From Actinomycetota bacterium (lineage in GTDB: Bacteria; Actinomycetota; Actinomycetes; JAKEEW01), in assembly GCA_046725875.1 (NCBI GenBank), contig JBKOZJ010000114.1, positions 1-45,081 of the forward strand: DNA of 45,081 bases, read 5' to 3'. The position numbers are program-made. Below are positions 24,001 through 42,000 of this stretch, piece by piece; the first letter of the stretch is position 1; the number at the start of each line of letters is the position of its first letter.

Positions 24001-27000
24001 CTGTCCTTGCCATACTCCTGCCGGGCGGCACGCATGGCTTCCGGCCCGTCGACCGGCTGGGCGTATTCGGCGTCGGCGTGCTCGCCGCCGCGTTCCTCTG
24101 TGTGCTCGCCCGCCCGCATGTCATCGCGCGACCAACGGGCCTGCGGGTCGTGAACTTGTTCCGGTCGCGCAACCTCGAGTGGGCTGAGGTAATCGAGGTC
24201 AATCTCCGCAGTGGCGACCCATGGGTGCTCCTCGACCTCTCCGACGGCGATACGCTAGCCGCGATGGGCATTCAGGCCAATGACGGCCTCCGTGCCCAAC
24301 AGGCCGCCCACGAGCTGCGGCGCCTGGTGGCTACCCACACCCTCACCGACCGAAACGACTGAGGTGTTCGTCACGAGCGGTGATGCCGGCGAGCCGGCTG
24401 CTAAACCGGGGTCGGGCCGAGCGGGAGGTGGCGTTCCGGCCACCGCTAAACCCAAGATTCACGTCAGCGTTCGAAGAACCAGGACGCCAGCAGGCGACGT
24501 ATCCGGGAGCGGAACTCTCGGCGGCGGTCCCGGCCCGAATCGAGCCGTTCTGGCCTCGGCCCTTCGGTGTGGACGTCGAATGGAAAGATCGACCAGTGGA
24601 CCTGGTTAAGCTCTCGCCGTCGCCGCCGCTCCGCCTCGCGCACCTCGCGCAACTCGGGTGGAATCGAGCTGGTCTGCCAAGTGCGCCAGTGGCGCCAGCG
24701 AGCACGCAGCCCGGGAAACCGGGGATCTGAATCTCCCATCGGTGCCTCCCGCCTTCAACGTACCGGTCCCGGATAAACGGGGCTACGAGCGCCGGTGGCG
24801 AAGATCCGGCGGGGCCGGACCTGCGGCGGCCTCCCGATAGGCTCGATCGTATGACCGAGCCGGGCAAAACCTCTCTGGCCAGCGCGGAGTCGGTCGAGGA
24901 CGTCCAACGGGCGCTTGCCGAGCAGGACTACCTCGCCGACCGAGGGCTGACGACCGCGGTCTTCCTTGCCCTGCGGATGGGCCGGCCTCTGTTCTGCGAG
25001 GGCGACGCCGGGGTAGGCAAGACAAGCGTCGCCGCCGCGATCGCGACCGCGCTCGGCGCACCCTTGATCCGGCTGCAGTGCTACGAGGGCATCGACGCGG
25101 CGCAGGCACTCTACGACTGGGACTTCCCGCGGCAGCTGCTGCACCTGCGCGCCGCGGAGGCCGCCGGCGTACACGACGCGGAGACGCTGGAAGCCGGCCT
25201 CTACGCCCGTCGATTCCTGCTGGCTCGGCCGTTGCTCGCCGCCCTGGAGACCGACCCTTGCGTGCTTCTCGTCGATGAGGTCGACCGCGCCGACGACGAG
25301 TTTGAGGCGTTTCTGCTCGAGGTCCTGTCTGACTTCACCGTGACCGTGCCCGAGCTCGGAACCATTCGCGCGCAGCGGCCACCGGTCGTCGTGCTCACGA
25401 GTAACAGGACCCGCGAGGTCCACGACGCACTCAAGCGCCGCTGCCTCTACCACTGGCTAGATCATCCGAGCATCGAACGTGAGGTGGCGATCATCCGGCG
25501 GCGACTGCCGGATGTGAGTGAGCGGCTGGCCGCCGACGTGGCTGCTGCCGTCGCGGTGTTGCGCGGCGGCGACCTGCTCAAGCCGCCGGGAGTGGCCGAG
25601 TCCATCGACTGGGCCAGCGCCTTGCGCACGCTTGGGGCGGAGCGGCTCGACTCGCTTGCCGCGGAGGCGACGCTGGGCGTCGTACTCAAGTATCGAGAGG
25701 ACCTCGAGCGAGTGCGCGGGAACGGGGTCGCCGCGCTGGCGATTGCCGCGGAGCCGTCATGACCCTGTTGGATGCGGGGGCGACCTCCCCGAGGTCGTCC
25801 GGGCTCGGAGCGATCGGTGACCTTGTGGCGTTCGGCCACCGGCTGCGCGCGGCCGGGGTTCCTGCCTCACCCGACCGCATCCAGGCCTTCGCCGCTGCCG
25901 TGGCAGCACTCGACCCGCTGGTCAGGGAGGACGTCTACTGGGCGGGCCGGCTCACCCTCTGCGGGGATCCGGACGACATCGCGCGTTTCGAGCAGGTCTT
26001 CCGGTTGTGGGTGTACGGGCCGGACGCGGGCTATCGGTTCTCTGGAGAGGTAACAGGTCTCCACCGACGGGATCGATCGGTTACCGACGTTGCCGCAGAC
26101 GCGGGCGGTCGGGGCGACGAGGACGGCGGCGGTGAGCGGCCGATCGGCCTTGCCGCCACCGACGTGGAGGTGCTCAGGCACCGTGACTACCCGCAGCTGT
26201 CAACGGCGGAGCGGGCCGAGGTTCGGCGGTTGATCGCCCTGCTCGACCCGGTTGGCCCGCCGCGGCGATCGCGGCGCTATCGGCCGGCTCGCCGCGGACC
26301 GCTGGATGCCCATCGGACAGTGCGCGCGATGCTCGCCCGCGGCGGGGAGCCGGCCAGACTGCGCCGCCGGCACCATGGCATCAAACCACGGCGGCTGGTG
26401 TTTCTCGTCGACGTGAGTGGCTCGATGGCCGCCTACTCCGACGCGCTGTTGCGAGTGGCTCACGCGGCGGTGCGCCGCCGTTTCGGAACCGAGGTCTTCA
26501 CGATGGGAACCCGGCTCACTCGGGTGACTCGAGAGCTGCGCCATCGGGATCCGGACCGGGCGCTCGCCGCGGCCGGGCGGGCCGTACCCGACTGGAGCGG
26601 CGGAACCCGGCTAGGCGAGCAGCTCAAGGCCTTCTGCGACCGATGGGGGCAGCGCGGGACCGCGCGCGGCGCGCTGCTGGTCGTCGCCAGTGACGGCTGG
26701 GAGCGTGGCGAGGCCCGCTTGCTCGGCGAGCAGATGGCCAGGCTGCGCCGGCTCGCGCATCGCGTCGTATGGGTTAACCCGCACGTGGCCAAGCCAGGCT
26801 TCGCGCCGTCGACGGCCGGCTTGCTGGCCGCGTTGCCGCACGTCGACGACATCCTCGCGGGCCACGATCTCGCGGCGTACGAGGAGTTGGCGCGTGTTCT
26901 GTCCACGAGGGTGAGGTCTTCCGATGCGTGACGTGCTCAACGAGGTAAAGGCGTGGTACGAGCAAGGAGTTGGTCTGGCCACGGTCGTCGGCACCTGGCA

Positions 27001-39000: not shown

Positions 39001-42000
39001 CGCGGGCGTGGCGTCCATCAAAGGCGTGTACGACGGTGAAGTCCGGCTATCCGACCAGCGGCCACCGGAGGCTTTTGTACTGAAGGCCCGCGGCGCCGGC
39101 GGTCCCGGAACGGTCGACGCGACCGCCCGCGTCACGCTCACCGAGGACGGTGACCAGACCCAGGTCTCTTACAACGCGGACGCCATCGTCGGCGGCATGG
39201 TCGCGGGCGTGGGCCAGCGCATGCTAACGGCCGTGGCGAAGCGGACGGCGGGTGAGTTCTTCGCCAACGTCGATGACGTCCTGGGCGGCCGCGCGCCGGG
39301 CGGTGTGACTGAGGAGTTGCCGGCAGGAGTCGCGGCAGCAGGCCAGCCGGTGACGACGCAGACCCCGAGCGCCGGCGTCTACGTAGCACCACCGAAGGCG
39401 CGGCAGCTCGCTTCGCCCGCGCTCATCCTCGGTTCCGCCGTGGTCGGTGCCATCATCGCGCTGGTAGGAGTATGGGTCGGCTGGGCCCTGGCGTCCTAGC
39501 GACGTCCCCCAGATCACCGCCCATTGCAAAAGAGAGGCGCATCTTCCTTCTCGAAGTGGCGAGGTTGCCTCCGCAGGTACTGGCCGCCTTGATGCCGTAA
39601 CGACCCGCTCTTCCCGAATGGCCTCAACGACATCAACCCCGTCCCGGCATTGCAGTTCGGCGAGACGGCGATCGACCTGACGAAGGCAGGTGTCTTCCCC
39701 ACGGGAACGTGCGCGGCCTTCGGAAGCGCGATGGTGAGGAGCCGCTCCGCGGCGTCGTTCACTTCGGAGATCAAGGACTTCATCGCCCCGATCCCGGTGA
39801 ACATCTCCAACTGCGGCAACGTCAACATCATCAAGCACACCGACCCGAGGGGAGTCAACCAGAACTTCAGTTACACATCGACTATTCCGAACCCGGCGAA
39901 CCCGAACGCCAATCCGCGCACGCCGCAATGCTCGAACGACGCGACGCCGTCTGGCTTCACCCTGAACGACCACGCGGGTGTCGACCCGTCGCCGATCACC
40001 GGCACGGACAACACCGAGCACTGCACGAACGTGCCGGCGGGGAGCTACACCGTCACGGAGAGCACCCCGCTGCCGGCCAACTTCGTGTTGGAGAGCCTCA
40101 CCTGTACGGCAGACAACGGCGGGAGCGGCAGCCAGGATGCCACCAACCAGTACCAACTCGAACACGGTCACGACCGATTCGAACGGCACCGCCTGTGTTG
40201 ACGGTCTCGCGTTCGGCACCTACACGGTCACCGAGACGCAGGCACCGCCGGGATTCGTCATCGACGACACAACCGGCCACCCGGTGACGGTCGATAACAA
40301 TGCGCTGTGCAGCGACAATCCATATGTGGGTGAGACAACCTCCTTCACCGACACCCCGACCGCGGACATCCAGGTGAACTTCCGCGACGGTGGCTCAGGT
40401 GAGACGAGCGGGACGATCACCTGTGACAACACGACGGGTACCGGCGACAACACTCCCGCAACGGGTTGGGAGACCTCCCGGACCGTCACCGGGGTGCACG
40501 CACCCACCACCGTCACCTGCACCATCGTCATCGACCCGTGAGGCTAGCTGACCAACCGTGAGGTGGGTGATCAACAGAGAGGGCCCCGCGACCGGCGGGG
40601 CCCTCTCCTGTTCGTCGCGCTGCACCGTTTGACCCTGATTGGTCCACATGTCGGTCTCAATGCTGACCTTTCCGCGAAGTTCCTTACCACTTGATGATCT
40701 ATTGGACTTGACGCCTCGGTAGTCCGGGCATTCGCTGGGTAAATGACGCCGAGCCAGCCGCTCACAGCGGCCGCGGTGCAGGTCGCAGCGAGACCAGGAC
40801 CGCTCACCGCGGAGACTGTTAAGACGAACCTCGACAACGCGGTCGGATGGGTCGAGCGATGCGTGGACTCGAGCGGAGCCGAGCTTGTTGTGCTCCCGGA
40901 GTCCTGCACGACCGGATTCACGCCCGCTCTCTCGCCCGAAGACCTATGGGATGTCGTCACCGAGGTTCCGGGTCCGGTCAGCGAGCCGATGCAGGAAGCA
41001 GCCCGCCGGCTCGGCGCCCACCTGTGCTATGGGACGTACGAGCGGGGCGACCGGCGCGGTGTCGTGTACAACACCGCACTGCTAATAGGTCCGTCGGGGG
41101 AAATCCTCTCCTCGTACCGGAAGACCCACCTCTACAGCGGAGAGTCGGTCGCGAGCGGTGGTTGGGTCACGCCAGGCGATACGGTGGCGGTGGCAGACAC
41201 ACCGTTCGGCCGGATCGGGACGGTGATCTGCTTCGACGGTGACTATCCGGAACTCGCCCGGATCCAGGCGGTCCGGGGGGCGGCCATCCTGCTCCGCCCG
41301 TCCGCGCTGCTGCGGTCTGCTGACATCTGGGAGCTCACGACCCGAGCCCGGGCGTATGACAACCACGTCTTCGTCATTGCGGCGAACGCGGTCGGCACCG
41401 ACCCGGCCGGCACCCTCTACTTCGGGAACTCGCTCATCGTCACCCCCACCGCAGAGGTCGTCGCCCGCGGTACGACCCATGAGGGTTGGGTCAGCGCCCG
41501 GATCGATCCGGCGACCGCGATGAGCACACTGAGTCCCGGGTCCAGCCAGCCGCAGCGGTTCGACCACCTCGCCGACCGCAACGTCGCTCTCTACGAGCGG
41601 TATGTCGATGACCTTATCCGTCCCGCCCGCCACGCCTTTGGCCGTTAGGTGCGGCGACCATCGAAACGAGCGGCAGGTCGTCAGCCGCGGTTAGCAGCAG
41701 AGACAGCATGATGAGGAGCGCGACGACCAGCCCACCGGGCAGCAGCAGGGCGAGGACTGCGCGGATCCGTCCCACACCTTCAAGGGAACCGACAACGTAG
41801 GTGACCACCACTAGCGCGGCCACCGGTGCCACCATGTCGACGATGGGCGTTACATCGGCAGTTGGAGCACCTAGCCGGACGACCGCACTAGGCAGAAGCA
41901 TGATCGCAGCAAGCAGTCCTACGACCTCGGTGGTGGCGTCGTGGTGACCGGAACCGCCGAGCAGGCGCGCGGTCCGGTGGATTAGGCCGCCGAGCGTCTT

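What a model noticed while it worked through the whole genome (the two positions that open the first line are those of the whole stretch)
24851..41648. AllFGH-type transcarbamylase and carbamate kinase wired into the oxidative pyrimidine (uracil-barbiturate) pathway
Beside the uracil/thymine dehydrogenase genes (g02371-73, 47-66% identical to Rhodococcus erythropolis Utdh) lie homologues of the three subunits of oxamic transcarbamylase (AllG g02366, AllF g02367, AllH g02368), a PucR regulator and an omega-amidase-like CN-hydrolase (g02377). Barbiturase (g02424, C117:7467-8570) forms an operon with carbamate kinase (g02425) and a family-III CoA-transferase (g02426 + g02403; C117 and C115 join by an exact 141-nt overlap). 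Predicted: a phosphorolytic, ATP-yielding branch of the oxidative pyrimidine pathway: ureidomalonate + Pi -> carbamoyl phosphate + malonamate (AllFGH-like); carbamoyl phosphate + ADP -> ATP + NH3 + CO2; malonamate -> malonate + NH3 (CN-h [...]
Evidence so far: Tables; contig join. In 401 sampled Actinomycetes genomes AllH PF11392 (E<=1e-20) is in 62 and barbiturase family PF09663 (E<=1e-30) in 95 (this tally includes 4 genomes flagged unpublished); 60 of the 62 AllH genomes have barbiturase, mostly 4-90 kb apart when on one contig. 20 AllH loci: 18 show AllG-AllF / PucR / UtdhM-S-L / CoxG, 7 with the CN-hydrolase after CoxG inside the window; an AllH ORF is found in 14 and a xanthine/uracil permease (PF00860, E 7e-75) between PucR and Utdh in 15 of 19; the one fetched AllH genome without barbiturase (L177) has AllF-AllG-carbamate kinase and no Utdh. 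20 barbiturase loci: carbamate kinase directly upstream of barbiturase in 17, CoA-transferase in th [...]
(Added by a program. Inside this text positions count along the whole contig: contig position 1 is position 1 of the stretch shown here. "Call 12" and the like, gene names such as g00115 and contig names such as C1 are that model's own, and its searches are not shown. The text may have been shortened before it was handed on; [...] marks where a part breaks off. The agent that wrote the report below was given it as the finding of a first reader that could run no searches.)

Follow-up and report, generated by a model that had tools for sequence, protein, structure and literature searches.

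The report
Carbamoyl-phosphate branch of oxidative uracil breakdown
An actinobacterial gene island places a three-subunit enzyme, known so far only for splitting oxalurate with phosphate, next to the genes that oxidise uracil, which suggests that these bacteria split the ring-opened uracil product with phosphate and gain one ATP rather than releasing urea.

Summary
Window 24851-41648 encodes Mo-cofactor maturation genes, allH-allF-allG, PucR, a three-subunit Mo-hydroxylase with CoxG, and an omega-amidase-like CN-hydrolase. Barbiturase, carbamate kinase and a CoA-transferase form an operon on contig C117, which joins C115 through a unique 141-nt overlap.

The AllG copies next to the uracil-dehydrogenase-type genes form one clade (82 rows, SH-aLRT 99), and E. 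coli AllG lies outside it. Utdh-type genes occur in 56 of 60 AllG loci long enough to judge. Carbamate kinase sits directly upstream of barbiturase in 56 of 77 loci. In 401 sampled Actinomycetes genomes, 84 hold both AllG and a barbiturase-family gene, 15 only AllG, 11 only barbiturase. The AllD family, needed to make oxalurate, was found in only 17 of those 84, and not in this genome. Urease was also not found here.

No assay exists, so ureidomalonate phosphorolysis is an inference (confidence 0.6).

- a second AllF/AllG/carbamate-kinase set on C13;
- recurrent HyuA/HyuB genes with no assigned role;
- two fairly complete genomes that have carbamate kinase-barbiturase but no AllFG.

This is a new variant of a known kind.

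The parts
24851..25762 (+). CoxD/MoxR-type AAA ATPase. Presumed maturation factor of the Mo-hydroxylase.
   Evidence: PF00004/PF07728 and MadB-like NF047784, E 7e-81 but below its cut-off. Overlaps the next gene by 4 nt.
25759..26931 (+). CoxE-type VWA protein (maturation).
   Evidence: PF05762, E 7e-54.
26924..28042 (+). XdhC-family Mo-cofactor insertion chaperone.
   Evidence: PF13478 and PF02625. NF045664, 207 bits, below its cut-off.
28106..28687 (+). MocA-like molybdenum cofactor cytidylyltransferase.
   Evidence: PF12804, E 2e-37. TIGR03310, 104 bits, below its cut-off.
28936..30336 (-). AllG-like subunit, 466 aa, last gene of the allH-allF-allG operon.
   Evidence: PF06545, E 3e-93. 49% identical to E. 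coli AllG over 406 aa. Member of the Utdh-linked clade, SH-aLRT 99.
30339..31862 (-). AllF/FdrA-like subunit, 507 aa, with a succinyl-CoA-synthetase-alpha-like fold.
   Evidence: PF00549. NF004760, 377 bits, below its cut-off of 433. PDB 3DMY FdrA, E 4e-70, with the conserved GR.HPMIDPTLR stretch. 39% identical to E. coli AllF.
31865..32938 (-). AllH-like subunit. The ORF is 357 aa, the family domain covers residues 224-345, and the true start is probably further downstream.
   Evidence: PF11392, E 1e-22. 32% identical to the C-terminal 121 aa of E. coli AllH. The N-terminal 45 residues are low-complexity. The gene upstream of AllF carries PF11392 in 56 of 62 related loci.
32939..33058 (.). 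Divergent intergenic region between allH and pucR. Presumed control region.
   Evidence: Read directly. No operator shared with the barbiturase operon was found.
33059..34705 (+). PucR-family transcriptional regulator.
   Evidence: PF07905, PF17853 and PF13556. A PucR homologue is present in 41 of 80 AllG loci.
34751..35836 (+). FAD-binding medium subunit of the Mo-hydroxylase (putative uracil/thymine dehydrogenase). The start is uncertain because the domain begins at residue 65.
   Evidence: PF00941 and PF03450.
35833..36429 (+). 2Fe-2S small subunit.
   Evidence: PF01799 and PF00111.
36426..38858 (+). Molybdopterin large subunit.
   Evidence: PF02738, PF20256 and PF01315. NF040766, 1465 bits. 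Nearest solved relatives are N-heterocycle hydroxylases: 6-hydroxypseudooxynicotine dehydrogenase at 457 bits and quinoline 2-oxidoreductase at 449 bits, ahead of CO dehydrogenase at 380 bits or less. Sits in one cluster with barbiturase in L025 and L059.
38855..39499 (+). CoxG-like protein, last gene of the dehydrogenase operon.
   Evidence: PF06240, E 1e-25. Overlaps the large-subunit gene by 4 nt.
40743..41648 (+). Omega-amidase-like CN-hydrolase. Proposed malonamate amidase.
   Evidence: PF00795, E 6e-48. Nearest solved relatives are PH0642, mouse Nit2 and yeast Nit3. The PE / RKxHL / CFD catalytic-triad stretches align with Nit2. An ortholog occurs in 59 of 401 genomes, 53 of which have both AllG and barbiturase.

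Best explanation
The island at 24851-41648, together with the barbiturase operon on C117/C115, encodes an oxidative uracil (and probably thymine) catabolic pathway. Its ureide-cleaving step is phosphorolytic rather than hydrolytic.

Proposed steps:
1. The Mo-hydroxylase (three subunits plus CoxG, matured by CoxD/CoxE/XdhC/MocA) oxidises uracil to barbiturate. This is inferred from family and context.
2. Barbiturase opens the ring to ureidomalonate (N-carbamoylmalonamate). The family assignment is shown. The reaction is known for the family.
3. The AllH-AllF-AllG enzyme is a distinct subfamily of the E. coli oxamic transcarbamylase. It attacks the acylurea bond with phosphate: ureidomalonate + Pi -> carbamoyl phosphate + malonamate. 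This copies the oxalurate reaction with one extra CH2. It is the central inference and is untested.
4. The carbamate kinase encoded directly upstream of barbiturase converts carbamoyl phosphate + ADP to ATP + NH3 + CO2. The family is shown. The coupling is inferred.
5. The omega-amidase-like CN-hydrolase converts malonamate to malonate + NH3 (inferred).
6. The family-III CoA-transferase makes malonyl-CoA (inferred). In many relatives a fused AccD/AccA-like carboxyltransferase between the CoA-transferase and the kinase could decarboxylate it to acetyl-CoA. This genome lacks that gene.

The outcome would be that both ring nitrogens are released as ammonia without urea or urease, with one ATP gained per pyrimidine. 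PucR is the likely regulator. HyuA/HyuB, an ATP-dependent lactamase-type enzyme, belongs to the gene set but has no assigned step.
For: Membership:
- AllG, AllF and AllH family matches.
- Identity to the E. coli subunits is 49%, 39% and 32%.
- The three genes are separated by 2-nt gaps in one operon.
- PF11392 is present in the gene upstream of AllF in 56 of 62 related loci.

Linkage to the uracil genes:
- Of the 80 closest AllG loci, 60 have at least 7 kb upstream of AllG, and 56 of these carry Utdh-type subunits.
- 43 of the 80 carry a RutG/uracil-type permease and 41 carry PucR.

Clade:
- All 82 such AllG rows form one clade (SH-aLRT 99, stem 0.44).
- E. coli AllG and two other actinobacterial AllG groups lie outside it.

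Linkage of carbamate kinase to barbiturase:
- The kinase is directly upstream of barbiturase in 56 of 77 loci with enough flank.

Single clusters holding both halves:
- L005, Actinomadura macra: AllG, permease, CN-hydrolase, CoA-transferase, carboxyltransferase, kinase, barbiturase.
- L130, Pseudonocardia acaciae: barbiturase, CoA-transferase, CN-hydrolase, permease, PucR, AllH-AllF-AllG.
- L156: Utdh, AllG, CoA-transferase, barbiturase, kinase.
- L059, Streptomyces sp.: PucR, HyuAB, CoA-transferase, kinase, barbiturase, CN-hydrolase, CoxG, Utdh, permease.

Co-occurrence:
- In 401 Actinomycetes genomes, 84 have both genes, 15 only AllG, 11 only barbiturase and 291 neither.
- 48 of 50 further barbiturase genomes have AllG.
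- In 42 genomes where I read both hits on one contig, 37 pairs lie 6-91 kb apart, median 35 kb.
- Within family f3, the 12 AllG genomes are the same as 12 of the 13 barbiturase genomes.

Against the oxalurate route:
- No Ldh_2/AllD match and no tblastn hit for E. coli AllD or AllE in this genome.
- The Ldh_2 family is found in only 17 of the 84 double-positive genomes.

Other support:
- No urease alpha subunit was found.
- The CN-hydrolase ortholog tracks the pathway: 53 of its 59 carriers have both genes.
- G418, 100% complete, has Utdh and barbiturase but no AllFG. It also has no kinase beside barbiturase, as a hydrolytic variant would predict.
- Chemistry: oxalurate and ureidomalonate are both N-acylureas that differ by one methylene. 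The E. coli enzyme is shown to interconvert oxalurate + Pi and carbamoyl phosphate + oxamate (PMC11326118, abstract and discussion read).
Against: - No enzyme of this clade has been assayed. Substrate, products and phosphate dependence are all inferred.
- G395 (97% complete) and G409 (92%) carry CoA-transferase, carbamate kinase and barbiturase but no AllG, no AllF and no Utdh-type large subunit above its cut-off. Either the whole island is unassembled, or the kinase there is fed by something else.
- G023 (L026) also has the kinase beside barbiturase, plus an amidase-signature gene, and no AllG. It is a MAG of unknown completeness.
- In 21 of 77 barbiturase loci no kinase is adjacent. In five such genomes only 43-47% identical kinases were found elsewhere.
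- The textbook pathway from R. erythropolis ends in urea + malonate through a hydrolytic ureidomalonase (PMC3758960, passages read).
- The CN-hydrolase could itself cleave ureidomalonate.
- Allantoinase and allantoicase lie on C117 about 5 kb from barbiturase, and an allantoicase abuts AllG in L086.
- HyuA/HyuB have no role in the scheme.
- The sampled genomes are related, so the counts overstate independence.
- This MAG is 89% complete, so each 'not found' is weak.
Confidence: 0.6

Rival explanations
1. The AllH-AllF-AllG enzyme is an ordinary oxamic transcarbamylase acting on oxalurate from purine/allantoin breakdown. It lies beside the uracil genes only because nitrogen-catabolic genes under PucR-type control tend to cluster.
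For: - All three subunits belong to the families of the only characterised enzyme, which uses oxalurate.
- PucR-family regulators are named after purine catabolism.
- Allantoinase (TIGR03178, 390 bits, above its cut-off) and allantoicase (TIGR02961, 387 bits) are on C117.
- An allantoicase gene abuts AllG in L086.
Against: - No AllD-family or AllE homologue was found in this genome.
- The AllD family is absent from 67 of 84 AllG+barbiturase genomes.
- An allantoicase homologue appears in 1 of 80 AllG loci and 1 of 80 barbiturase loci, against Utdh genes in 56 of 60.
- The Utdh-linked AllG copies are a separate clade from E. coli AllG.
- Operons arranged more like E. coli's (AllH-AllF-AllG-carbamate kinase) exist in Actinomycetes as a different clade, in genomes without barbiturase.
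Confidence: 0.12
2. Ureidomalonate is cleaved hydrolytically. The CN-hydrolase, or an unidentified ureidomalonase, makes malonate + urea or malonamate + CO2 + NH3. AllHFG and carbamate kinase serve another ureide of the same regulon, for example a thymine-derived or side-product acylurea.
For: - The only biochemically described route is hydrolytic (PMC3758960 passages).
- CN-hydrolase relatives include carbamoylases and beta-ureidopropionase.
- The CN-hydrolase ortholog is as tightly tied to the pathway as AllG.
- Some genomes have kinase-barbiturase without AllFG.
- HyuA/HyuB show that the gene set contains steps nobody has assigned.
Against: - A urea-forming route wastes nitrogen where no urease was found.
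- It leaves the conserved kinase-barbiturase operon (56 of 77 loci) without a source of carbamoyl phosphate.
- 31 of 84 AllG+barbiturase genomes lack this CN-hydrolase ortholog.
- Its nearest solved relatives are omega-amidases acting on dicarboxylate monoamides (Nit2, Nit3), which fits malonamate.
Confidence: 0.15
3. AllF acts as its old annotation says, as an acyl-CoA synthetase/ligase. It would activate malonate or a related acid, and carbamoyl phosphate is not involved.
For: AllF has the CoA-ligase domain PF00549 and matches succinyl-CoA synthetase alpha chains. NCBIfam still calls the family an acyl-CoA synthetase.
Against: - The E. coli complex was purified and shown to be a transcarbamylase (PMC11326118).
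- A dedicated CoA-transferase is already in the barbiturase operon.
- This reading does not explain the carbamate kinase.
Confidence: 0.04

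Closest known systems
E. coli oxamic transcarbamylase AllF-AllG-AllH with carbamate kinase AllK (allFGHK; Kim and Kim 2024, PMC11326118)
   Same: - The same three protein families are present (PF00549/FdrA, PF06545, PF11392).
- The three genes form one operon.
- Both are functionally paired with a catabolic carbamate kinase.
- The proposed chemistry is the same: phosphorolysis of an N-acylurea to carbamoyl phosphate plus a primary amide.
   Different: - Identity is only 39-49%, and 32% for the C-terminal part of AllH.
- It is a separate clade.
- Gene order is H-F-G, not F-G-H.
- The kinase is not in the operon. It sits upstream of barbiturase elsewhere in the genome.
- The neighbours are uracil-oxidation genes, not allECD.
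- The proposed substrate is ureidomalonate, not oxalurate.
- The amide product is proposed to be degraded further. I recall that E. coli excretes oxamate, but I did not check this here.
Oxidative pyrimidine pathway of Rhodococcus erythropolis (uracil/thymine dehydrogenase, barbiturase, ureidomalonase; Soong et al. 2001 and 2002, as cited in PMC3758960)
   Same: The first two steps match. There is a Mo-hydroxylase-type dehydrogenase and a true barbiturase (PDB 5HWE, 585 bits). Malonate is the carbon end product.
   Different: The third step is proposed to be phosphorolytic and to yield carbamoyl phosphate and malonamate, where the known route is hydrolytic and yields urea and malonate. No urea or urease is needed and one ATP is gained. 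As far as I recall, no gene is known for ureidomalonase, so the two cannot be compared by sequence.
Carbamoyltransferase plus carbamate kinase pairs that yield ATP from ureides: catabolic OTCase/ArcC, and YgeW/YqeA in the E. coli uricolytic cluster (bioRxiv 10.1101/2025.05.19.654654, passages read)
   Same: The logic is the same. A ureido group is transferred to phosphate and then to ADP, so nitrogen release is coupled to substrate-level phosphorylation.
   Different: Those transferases belong to the ATCase/OTCase superfamily and act on N-alkyl ureido compounds. AllFGH is unrelated in sequence and acts on N-acyl ureas.
Omega-amidase Nit2/Nit3 (CN-hydrolase superfamily)
   Same: These are the best solved relatives and the catalytic-triad stretches are conserved. 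The substrates are monoamides of dicarboxylic acids, a class that includes malonamate.
   Different: The match is only about 108 bits. No NCBIfam equivalog cut-off is reached. The substrate is untested.

Membership tests
AllFGH-type (oxamic) transcarbamylase | AllG subunit (PF06545 / DUF1116) | tested here: met
   E 3e-93, full-length domain. 49% identical to E. coli AllG.
AllFGH-type (oxamic) transcarbamylase | AllF/FdrA subunit with a succinyl-CoA-synthetase-alpha-like fold | tested here: met
   PF00549. PDB 3DMY FdrA, E 4e-70. The NCBIfam FdrA subfamily score of 377 is below its cut-off of 433.
AllFGH-type (oxamic) transcarbamylase | AllH subunit (PF11392 / DUF2877) | tested here: met
   E 1e-22 over residues 224-345. 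Present upstream of AllF in 56 of 62 related loci.
AllFGH-type (oxamic) transcarbamylase | The three genes lie in one operon with a carbamate kinase gene (allFGHK) | tested here: not met
   The three genes are contiguous with 2-nt gaps, but no kinase is in the operon. The kinase lies upstream of barbiturase on C117. A kinase was seen in 1 of 80 AllG loci of this clade.
AllFGH-type (oxamic) transcarbamylase | Context of allantoin-to-oxalurate genes (allE, allC, allD) | tested here: not met
   E. coli has allECD next to fdrA. Here the neighbours are PucR and Mo-hydroxylase genes. No AllD or AllE homologue was found in the genome.
AllFGH-type (oxamic) transcarbamylase | Catalyses oxalurate + Pi <-> carbamoyl phosphate + oxamate | not testable with these tools
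   Needs an enzyme assay.
Oxidative pyrimidine pathway | Barbiturase (EC 3.5.2.1) rather than cyanuric acid hydrolase | tested here: met
   PDB 'Barbiturase' 5HWE scores 585 bits, against at most 317 for cyanuric acid hydrolases. Note that the NCBIfam equivalog 'cyanuric acid amidohydrolase' NF052395 is also passed (479 bits, cut-off 360).
Oxidative pyrimidine pathway | Uracil/thymine dehydrogenase | tested here: inconclusive
   A three-subunit Mo-hydroxylase is present. It is nearest to N-heterocycle hydroxylases. It is clustered with barbiturase and a uracil-type permease in relatives. Identity to the R. erythropolis enzyme could not be checked.
Oxidative pyrimidine pathway | Ureidomalonase (hydrolytic, urea-forming) | not testable with these tools
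   I know of no sequence for this enzyme. No open paper gives one.
Carbamate kinase | Score above a curated family cut-off | tested here: met
   NF009007 scores 305 bits against a cut-off of 266. TIGR00746 scores 338 against a cut-off of 358, just below.

The most novel reading that the evidence does not exclude
AllF-AllG(-AllH) plus carbamate kinase may be a general, diversified 'acylurea phosphorylase' module that turns N-acylureas into ATP. Oxalurate in enterobacteria would be only one substrate.

In Actinomycetes at least three further lineages exist:
- The Utdh-linked clade would act on ureidomalonate. That would make aerobic oxidative pyrimidine catabolism urea-free and ATP-yielding in about a fifth of sampled Actinomycetes, and would supply a gene for the pathway's last unassigned step.
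- A clade in operons with isochorismatase-family and allophanate-hydrolase-like genes would perhaps act on biuret- or allophanate-type compounds.
- A third clade, in unrelated contexts, includes the second set on C13 of this genome.
Probability: 0.35. Interest if true: 0.8.

Novelty: new variant of a known kind. Interest (0 to 1): 0.7.

Why it matters
The oxidative pyrimidine pathway has been known since the 1950s, yet no gene has been assigned to the step after barbiturase. The AllFGH transcarbamylase family was only recognised in 2024 and has a single known substrate.

If the prediction holds, several things follow:
- It gives that family a second physiological substrate.
- It gives the pathway its missing gene set.
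- It shows that many soil Actinomycetes recover both ring nitrogens as ammonia, with an ATP, and without urea or urease.
- It corrects widespread database names. The dehydrogenase is called 'aerobic CO dehydrogenase' and the barbiturase passes the 'cyanuric acid amidohydrolase' model.

The prediction is directly testable with cultured strains that carry the whole cluster.

Tried and rejected
1. Does kinase adjacency to barbiturase predict AllG presence? The test did not discriminate, because 48 of 50 barbiturase genomes have AllG whether or not the kinase is adjacent.

2. A search for a shared operator between PucR/allH intergenic regions (19 loci plus the window) and regions upstream of the barbiturase operon (56 loci plus this genome) gave only GC-rich k-mers and a signal from the PucR coding start. 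No regulon evidence came of it.

3. I could not verify the large subunit as R. erythropolis Utdh. Paper searches gave nothing usable, and the named entries among the 120 best relatives are CO dehydrogenase, xanthine dehydrogenase family or generic Mo-oxidoreductase names.

4. I considered that the barbiturase-family gene might be a cyanuric acid hydrolase, as NCBIfam would name it. I rejected this on the PDB comparison and on context.

5. I considered true CO dehydrogenase. The large subunit has PYRGAGR, not the CSFR-type motif (the motifs are recalled from memory). It is also nearer to heterocycle hydroxylases.

6. The low-scoring barbiturase-family hits (G102, G127, G179, G183, G286, G318) were treated as probable non-barbiturases. 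The fetched examples (G102, G183, G286) are 37-42% identical. They are still counted in the tallies.

8. The paper PMC3415516 (Seffernick et al. 2012) is not held. Supplements of PMC11326118 (homologue tables) were not opened.

9. No structure, complex or read-mapping job was run. None would decide the substrate.

Full report
**What is in the window**

The window is contig C114 of a 3.76-Mb, 197-contig, 89%-complete high-GC actinobacterial MAG. Positions 1-24850 hold housekeeping genes: pyrD, pyrF, an SNF2 helicase, coaBC, metK, priA, def, fmt, rpe and the riboflavin operon.

A catabolic island runs from 24851 to 41648:
- coxD-coxE-xdhC, translationally coupled, followed by mocA on the plus strand.
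- allH-allF-allG on the minus strand, with 2-nt gaps between genes.
- pucR, divergent from allH.
- The FAD, 2Fe-2S and Mo subunits of a Mo-hydroxylase plus coxG, with 4-nt overlaps.
- After 1.2 kb holding SpaA-like ORFs, a CN-hydrolase.

**The second half of the system, outside the window**

On C117 the order on the minus strand is family-III CoA-transferase, carbamate kinase, barbiturase.
- The kinase passes the NCBIfam subfamily cut-off (NF009007, 305 against 266).
- The barbiturase is genuine. It scores 585 bits against the PDB entry named Barbiturase and at most 317 against cyanuric acid hydrolases. It would nevertheless pass NCBI's 'cyanuric acid amidohydrolase' model.

The end of C117 overlaps the end of C115 by an exact 141 nt that occur nowhere else in the assembly. 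Reading across gives a complete 389-aa CoA-transferase.

Upstream on C115 lie HyuA and HyuB, whose nearest named family is caprolactamase, though far below its cut-off. An ABC transporter and a small kinase-like gene follow. C117 also carries allantoinase and allantoicase.

**How firmly AllHFG is tied to the uracil genes**

I took the 80 closest AllG loci in one-genome-per-species contigs. They include Nocardioides, Streptosporangiaceae, Jiangella, Pseudonocardia, Actinomadura and many MAGs.
- 60 have at least 7 kb upstream of AllG, and 56 of these carry the Mo-hydroxylase subunits.
- Of the other 4, two have only the Mo-maturation genes and one (L130) has barbiturase, CoA-transferase, CN-hydrolase and permease instead.
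- 43 of the 80 have a permease whose best named matches are RutG and uracil permease.
- The gene directly upstream of AllF carries the AllH domain in 56 of the 62 loci where I could pick an ORF.

In a maximum-likelihood tree of 103 AllG sequences, the 82 rows of this kind form one clade (SH-aLRT 99, stem length 0.44). E. coli AllG and 20 other actinobacterial copies lie outside it. That tree came from a quick search without bootstraps, and E. coli sits on a long branch.

**How firmly carbamate kinase is tied to barbiturase**

Of the 80 closest barbiturase loci, 77 have at least 1.1 kb upstream. In 56 of these a carbamate kinase gene ends within 500 bp on the same strand.

Across the 80 loci, within the flanks:
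- 25 have the CoA-transferase.
- 23 have a fused AccD/AccA-like carboxyltransferase (between the CoA-transferase and the kinase in the loci I annotated: L005, L187, L189, L190).
- 14 have HyuB.

The 21 loci without an adjacent kinase are mostly Nonomuraea and Streptosporangium. Five such genomes hold only 43-47% identical kinases elsewhere, one of them next to a second AllG copy.

**Both halves together**

Four loci unite the halves physically:
- L005, Actinomadura macra.
- L130, Pseudonocardia acaciae.
- L156, a MAG.
- L059, a Streptomyces, with everything except AllHFG inside the 21 kb fetched.

In 401 sampled Actinomycetes genomes (including this one):
- AllG is in 99 and the barbiturase family in 95.
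- 84 have both, 15 only AllG, 11 only barbiturase and 291 neither.

Among the 30 families itemised in both outputs:
- 13 have both genes, 2 have AllG only, none has barbiturase only, and 15 have neither.
- In family f3 the 12 AllG genomes are 12 of the 13 barbiturase genomes.

For 42 genomes in which I read both best hits on one contig, 37 pairs are 6-91 kb apart, median 35 kb. A further 48 of 50 barbiturase genomes reached through loci have AllG. The last 30 of those 80 loci were not searched.

These genomes are related, so the counts are not independent events. Several flagged-unpublished genomes are included: G009, G042, G056, G073, G085, G311, G352 and G421.

**The exceptions**

The 15 AllG-only genomes:
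- 8 carry only low-scoring copies or fragments (best E 3e-37 to 1e-77).
- 4 carry a clade-2 copy (below).
- 3 are 77-91% complete with a clade-A-like copy on a short contig.

The 11 barbiturase-only genomes:
- 6 have distant family members, probably not barbiturases. The three I fetched (G102, G183, G286) are 37-42% identical.

The 5 with a true barbiturase:
- G418 (100% complete) has the Utdh-type large subunit (1458 bits) and barbiturase but no AllF or AllG. It also has no kinase beside barbiturase, which is what a hydrolytic variant would look like.
- G087 and G421 are fragmentary.
- G395 (97%) and G409 (92%) have CoA-transferase, kinase and barbiturase but neither AllF/AllG nor a Utdh-type subunit above its cut-off. 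The whole island is missing together, by loss or by assembly. These two genomes, and the MAG behind L026 (kinase beside barbiturase, an amidase-signature gene, no AllG), are the main comparative evidence against a strict dependence of the kinase on AllHFG.

**The rival that AllHFG handles purine-derived oxalurate**

E. coli places allFGHK next to allE-allC-allD. In this genome I found none of the following, in an 89%-complete MAG:
- an Ldh_2/AllD family match;
- a tblastn hit for E. coli AllD or AllE;
- a urease alpha subunit.

Across the sample the Ldh_2 family is in 56 of 401 genomes, but in only 17 of the 84 with both AllG and barbiturase. Allantoicase neighbours AllG in 1 of 80 loci. The oxalurate reading is therefore possible but poorly supported.

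**The remaining enzymes**

The CN-hydrolase:
- Its nearest solved relatives are PH0642, mouse Nit2 and yeast Nit3, the last two being omega-amidases for dicarboxylate monoamides. The Glu/Lys/Cys stretches are conserved.
- Orthologs (E at most 1e-60, 61-83% identity) occur in 59 of 401 genomes.
- Of these, 53 have both AllG and barbiturase, 4 have one of the two in incomplete genomes, and 2 have neither.
- 31 of the 84 double-positive genomes lack it. Many Streptosporangiales loci instead have a roughly 30% identical CN-hydrolase between the CoA-transferase and the kinase.
- Malonamate amidase is a natural role if AllHFG releases malonamate. The same enzyme could, however, be a ureidomalonase or a decarbamoylase.

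The CoA-transferase is nearest to dicarboxylate CoA-transferases (succinate-glutarate, oxalate), all below their cut-offs.

The Mo large subunit is nearer to 6-hydroxypseudooxynicotine dehydrogenase and quinoline 2-oxidoreductase than to CO dehydrogenase. It nevertheless hits NCBI's 'aerobic CO dehydrogenase group 5' model at 1465 bits, and most named public relatives carry that name.

**Mechanism, and what is shown versus inferred**

Shown:
- Family membership of all parts.
- Operon structure.
- Conserved linkage and co-occurrence.
- A separate clade for the Utdh-linked AllG.

Known from the literature:
- E. coli AllF-AllG-AllH interconverts oxalurate + Pi and carbamoyl phosphate + oxamate, and works with the kinase AllK (PMC11326118, abstract and discussion read).
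- Barbiturase yields ureidomalonate, and the described pathway ends in urea + malonate through ureidomalonase (PMC3758960, passages read).

Inferred:
- This AllHFG clade phosphorolyses ureidomalonate, the next homologue of oxalurate, to carbamoyl phosphate + malonamate.
- The barbiturase-linked kinase makes ATP from the carbamoyl phosphate.
- The CN-hydrolase deamidates malonamate.
- The CoA-transferase activates malonate.

I found no paper proposing this in five searches of the held library. Subscription journals are largely not covered.

First, this genome has a second set on C13. It consists of carbamate kinase and AllF (C13:20377-22745, minus strand) and AllG (C13:32947-34311), each 42-43% identical to the copies discussed. 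The surrounding genes are unrelated: a radical SAM enzyme, an AIR-synthase-like protein, ComA and two fumarate-lyase-family proteins.

Second, other Actinomycetes have AllH-AllF-AllG-kinase operons of another clade (48-53% identity). In the two I annotated (L166, L168) these sit next to an isochorismatase-family hydrolase, and in L168 also a protein with the allophanate-hydrolase C-terminal domain. Four of the five are in genomes without barbiturase; the fifth (L169) is a second copy in G136, which has one. Together these suggest a wider family of acylurea-cleaving modules.

Third, HyuA/HyuB recur next to the Utdh or barbiturase genes: HyuA in 10 of 80 AllG loci and HyuB in 14 of 80 barbiturase loci, plus this genome. 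They have no place in the scheme. An ATP-dependent opening of 5-methylbarbiturate from thymine is my speculation only.

**Verdict**

It is best filed as a new variant of a known kind: an AllFGH-type transcarbamylase subfamily recruited to the oxidative pyrimidine pathway. My confidence in the central step is 0.6.

Noticed in passing
G000:C13:20377-22745 and C13:32947-34311 (loci L165, L164): There is a second carbamate kinase-AllF operon, with a second AllG 11 kb away, each 42-43% identical to the copies in the finding. No AllH was seen by tblastn. The neighbours are amidohydrolase_2, radical SAM, GNAT, AIR-synthase-like, ComA and two Lyase_1 genes. The substrate is unknown.
   Followed up: partly
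L166-L170 (G097, G362, G392, G136, G303): A separate actinobacterial clade of AllF-AllG-carbamate kinase operons, 48-53% identical for AllG (AllH confirmed only in L168). In the two loci annotated (L166, L168) they sit next to an isochorismatase-family hydrolase; L168 also has an allophanate-hydrolase C-domain protein and PucR (PucR also in L169). Four of the five genomes lack barbiturase; G136 has one. This may be another acylurea, of the biuret or allophanate type.
   Followed up: partly
L003:833-5956 (C115); also L025, L026, L059, L107, L108, L118, L119, L128: HyuA/HyuB (ATP-dependent hydantoinase/oxoprolinase family, nearest to caprolactamase but far below its cut-off) recur next to the CoA-transferase-kinase-barbiturase genes or the Utdh genes. 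No step of the proposed pathway needs them.
   Followed up: partly
window 36426-38858 and L002:7467-8570: Two annotation traps. The Mo large subunit scores 1465 bits on NCBIfam's 'aerobic carbon-monoxide dehydrogenase large subunit' exception model, and most named entries among its 120 best public relatives carry that name. The barbiturase passes the 'cyanuric acid amidohydrolase' equivalog cut-off.
   Followed up: yes
L005:7018-8862, L187:6144-7637, L189, L190: A fused AccD/AccA-like carboxyltransferase (497-614 aa) is found in 23 of 80 barbiturase loci; in the loci annotated it sits between the CoA-transferase and the carbamate kinase. It is a candidate malonyl-CoA decarboxylase. This genome has no ortholog; the best hit is 24% identical, on C6.
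   Followed up: partly
window 39650-40541: Two overlapping plus-strand ORFs with weak SpaA/prealbumin-fold matches lie between coxG and the CN-hydrolase. They may be one frameshifted surface-protein gene. They are unrelated to the pathway.
   Followed up: no
window 34705-34751; L003:6164-10569: Unlike 43 of 80 related loci, this island has no RutG/uracil-type permease between pucR and the dehydrogenase genes, and tblastn found none in the genome. An ABC transporter sits between HyuB and the CoA-transferase instead.
   Followed up: partly
L139, L113: Contigs labelled as Gemmatimonadota and Spirochaetaceae MAGs carry AllG 68-69% identical to the window's, with actinobacterial-type neighbours. 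This is probably mis-binning rather than transfer.
   Followed up: no
L002:1-2089 (C117): Allantoinase (cut by the contig end) and allantoicase, both above their NCBIfam cut-offs, lie about 5 kb from barbiturase. The genome therefore also degrades allantoin to ureidoglycolate and urea, although no urease was found.
   Followed up: partly
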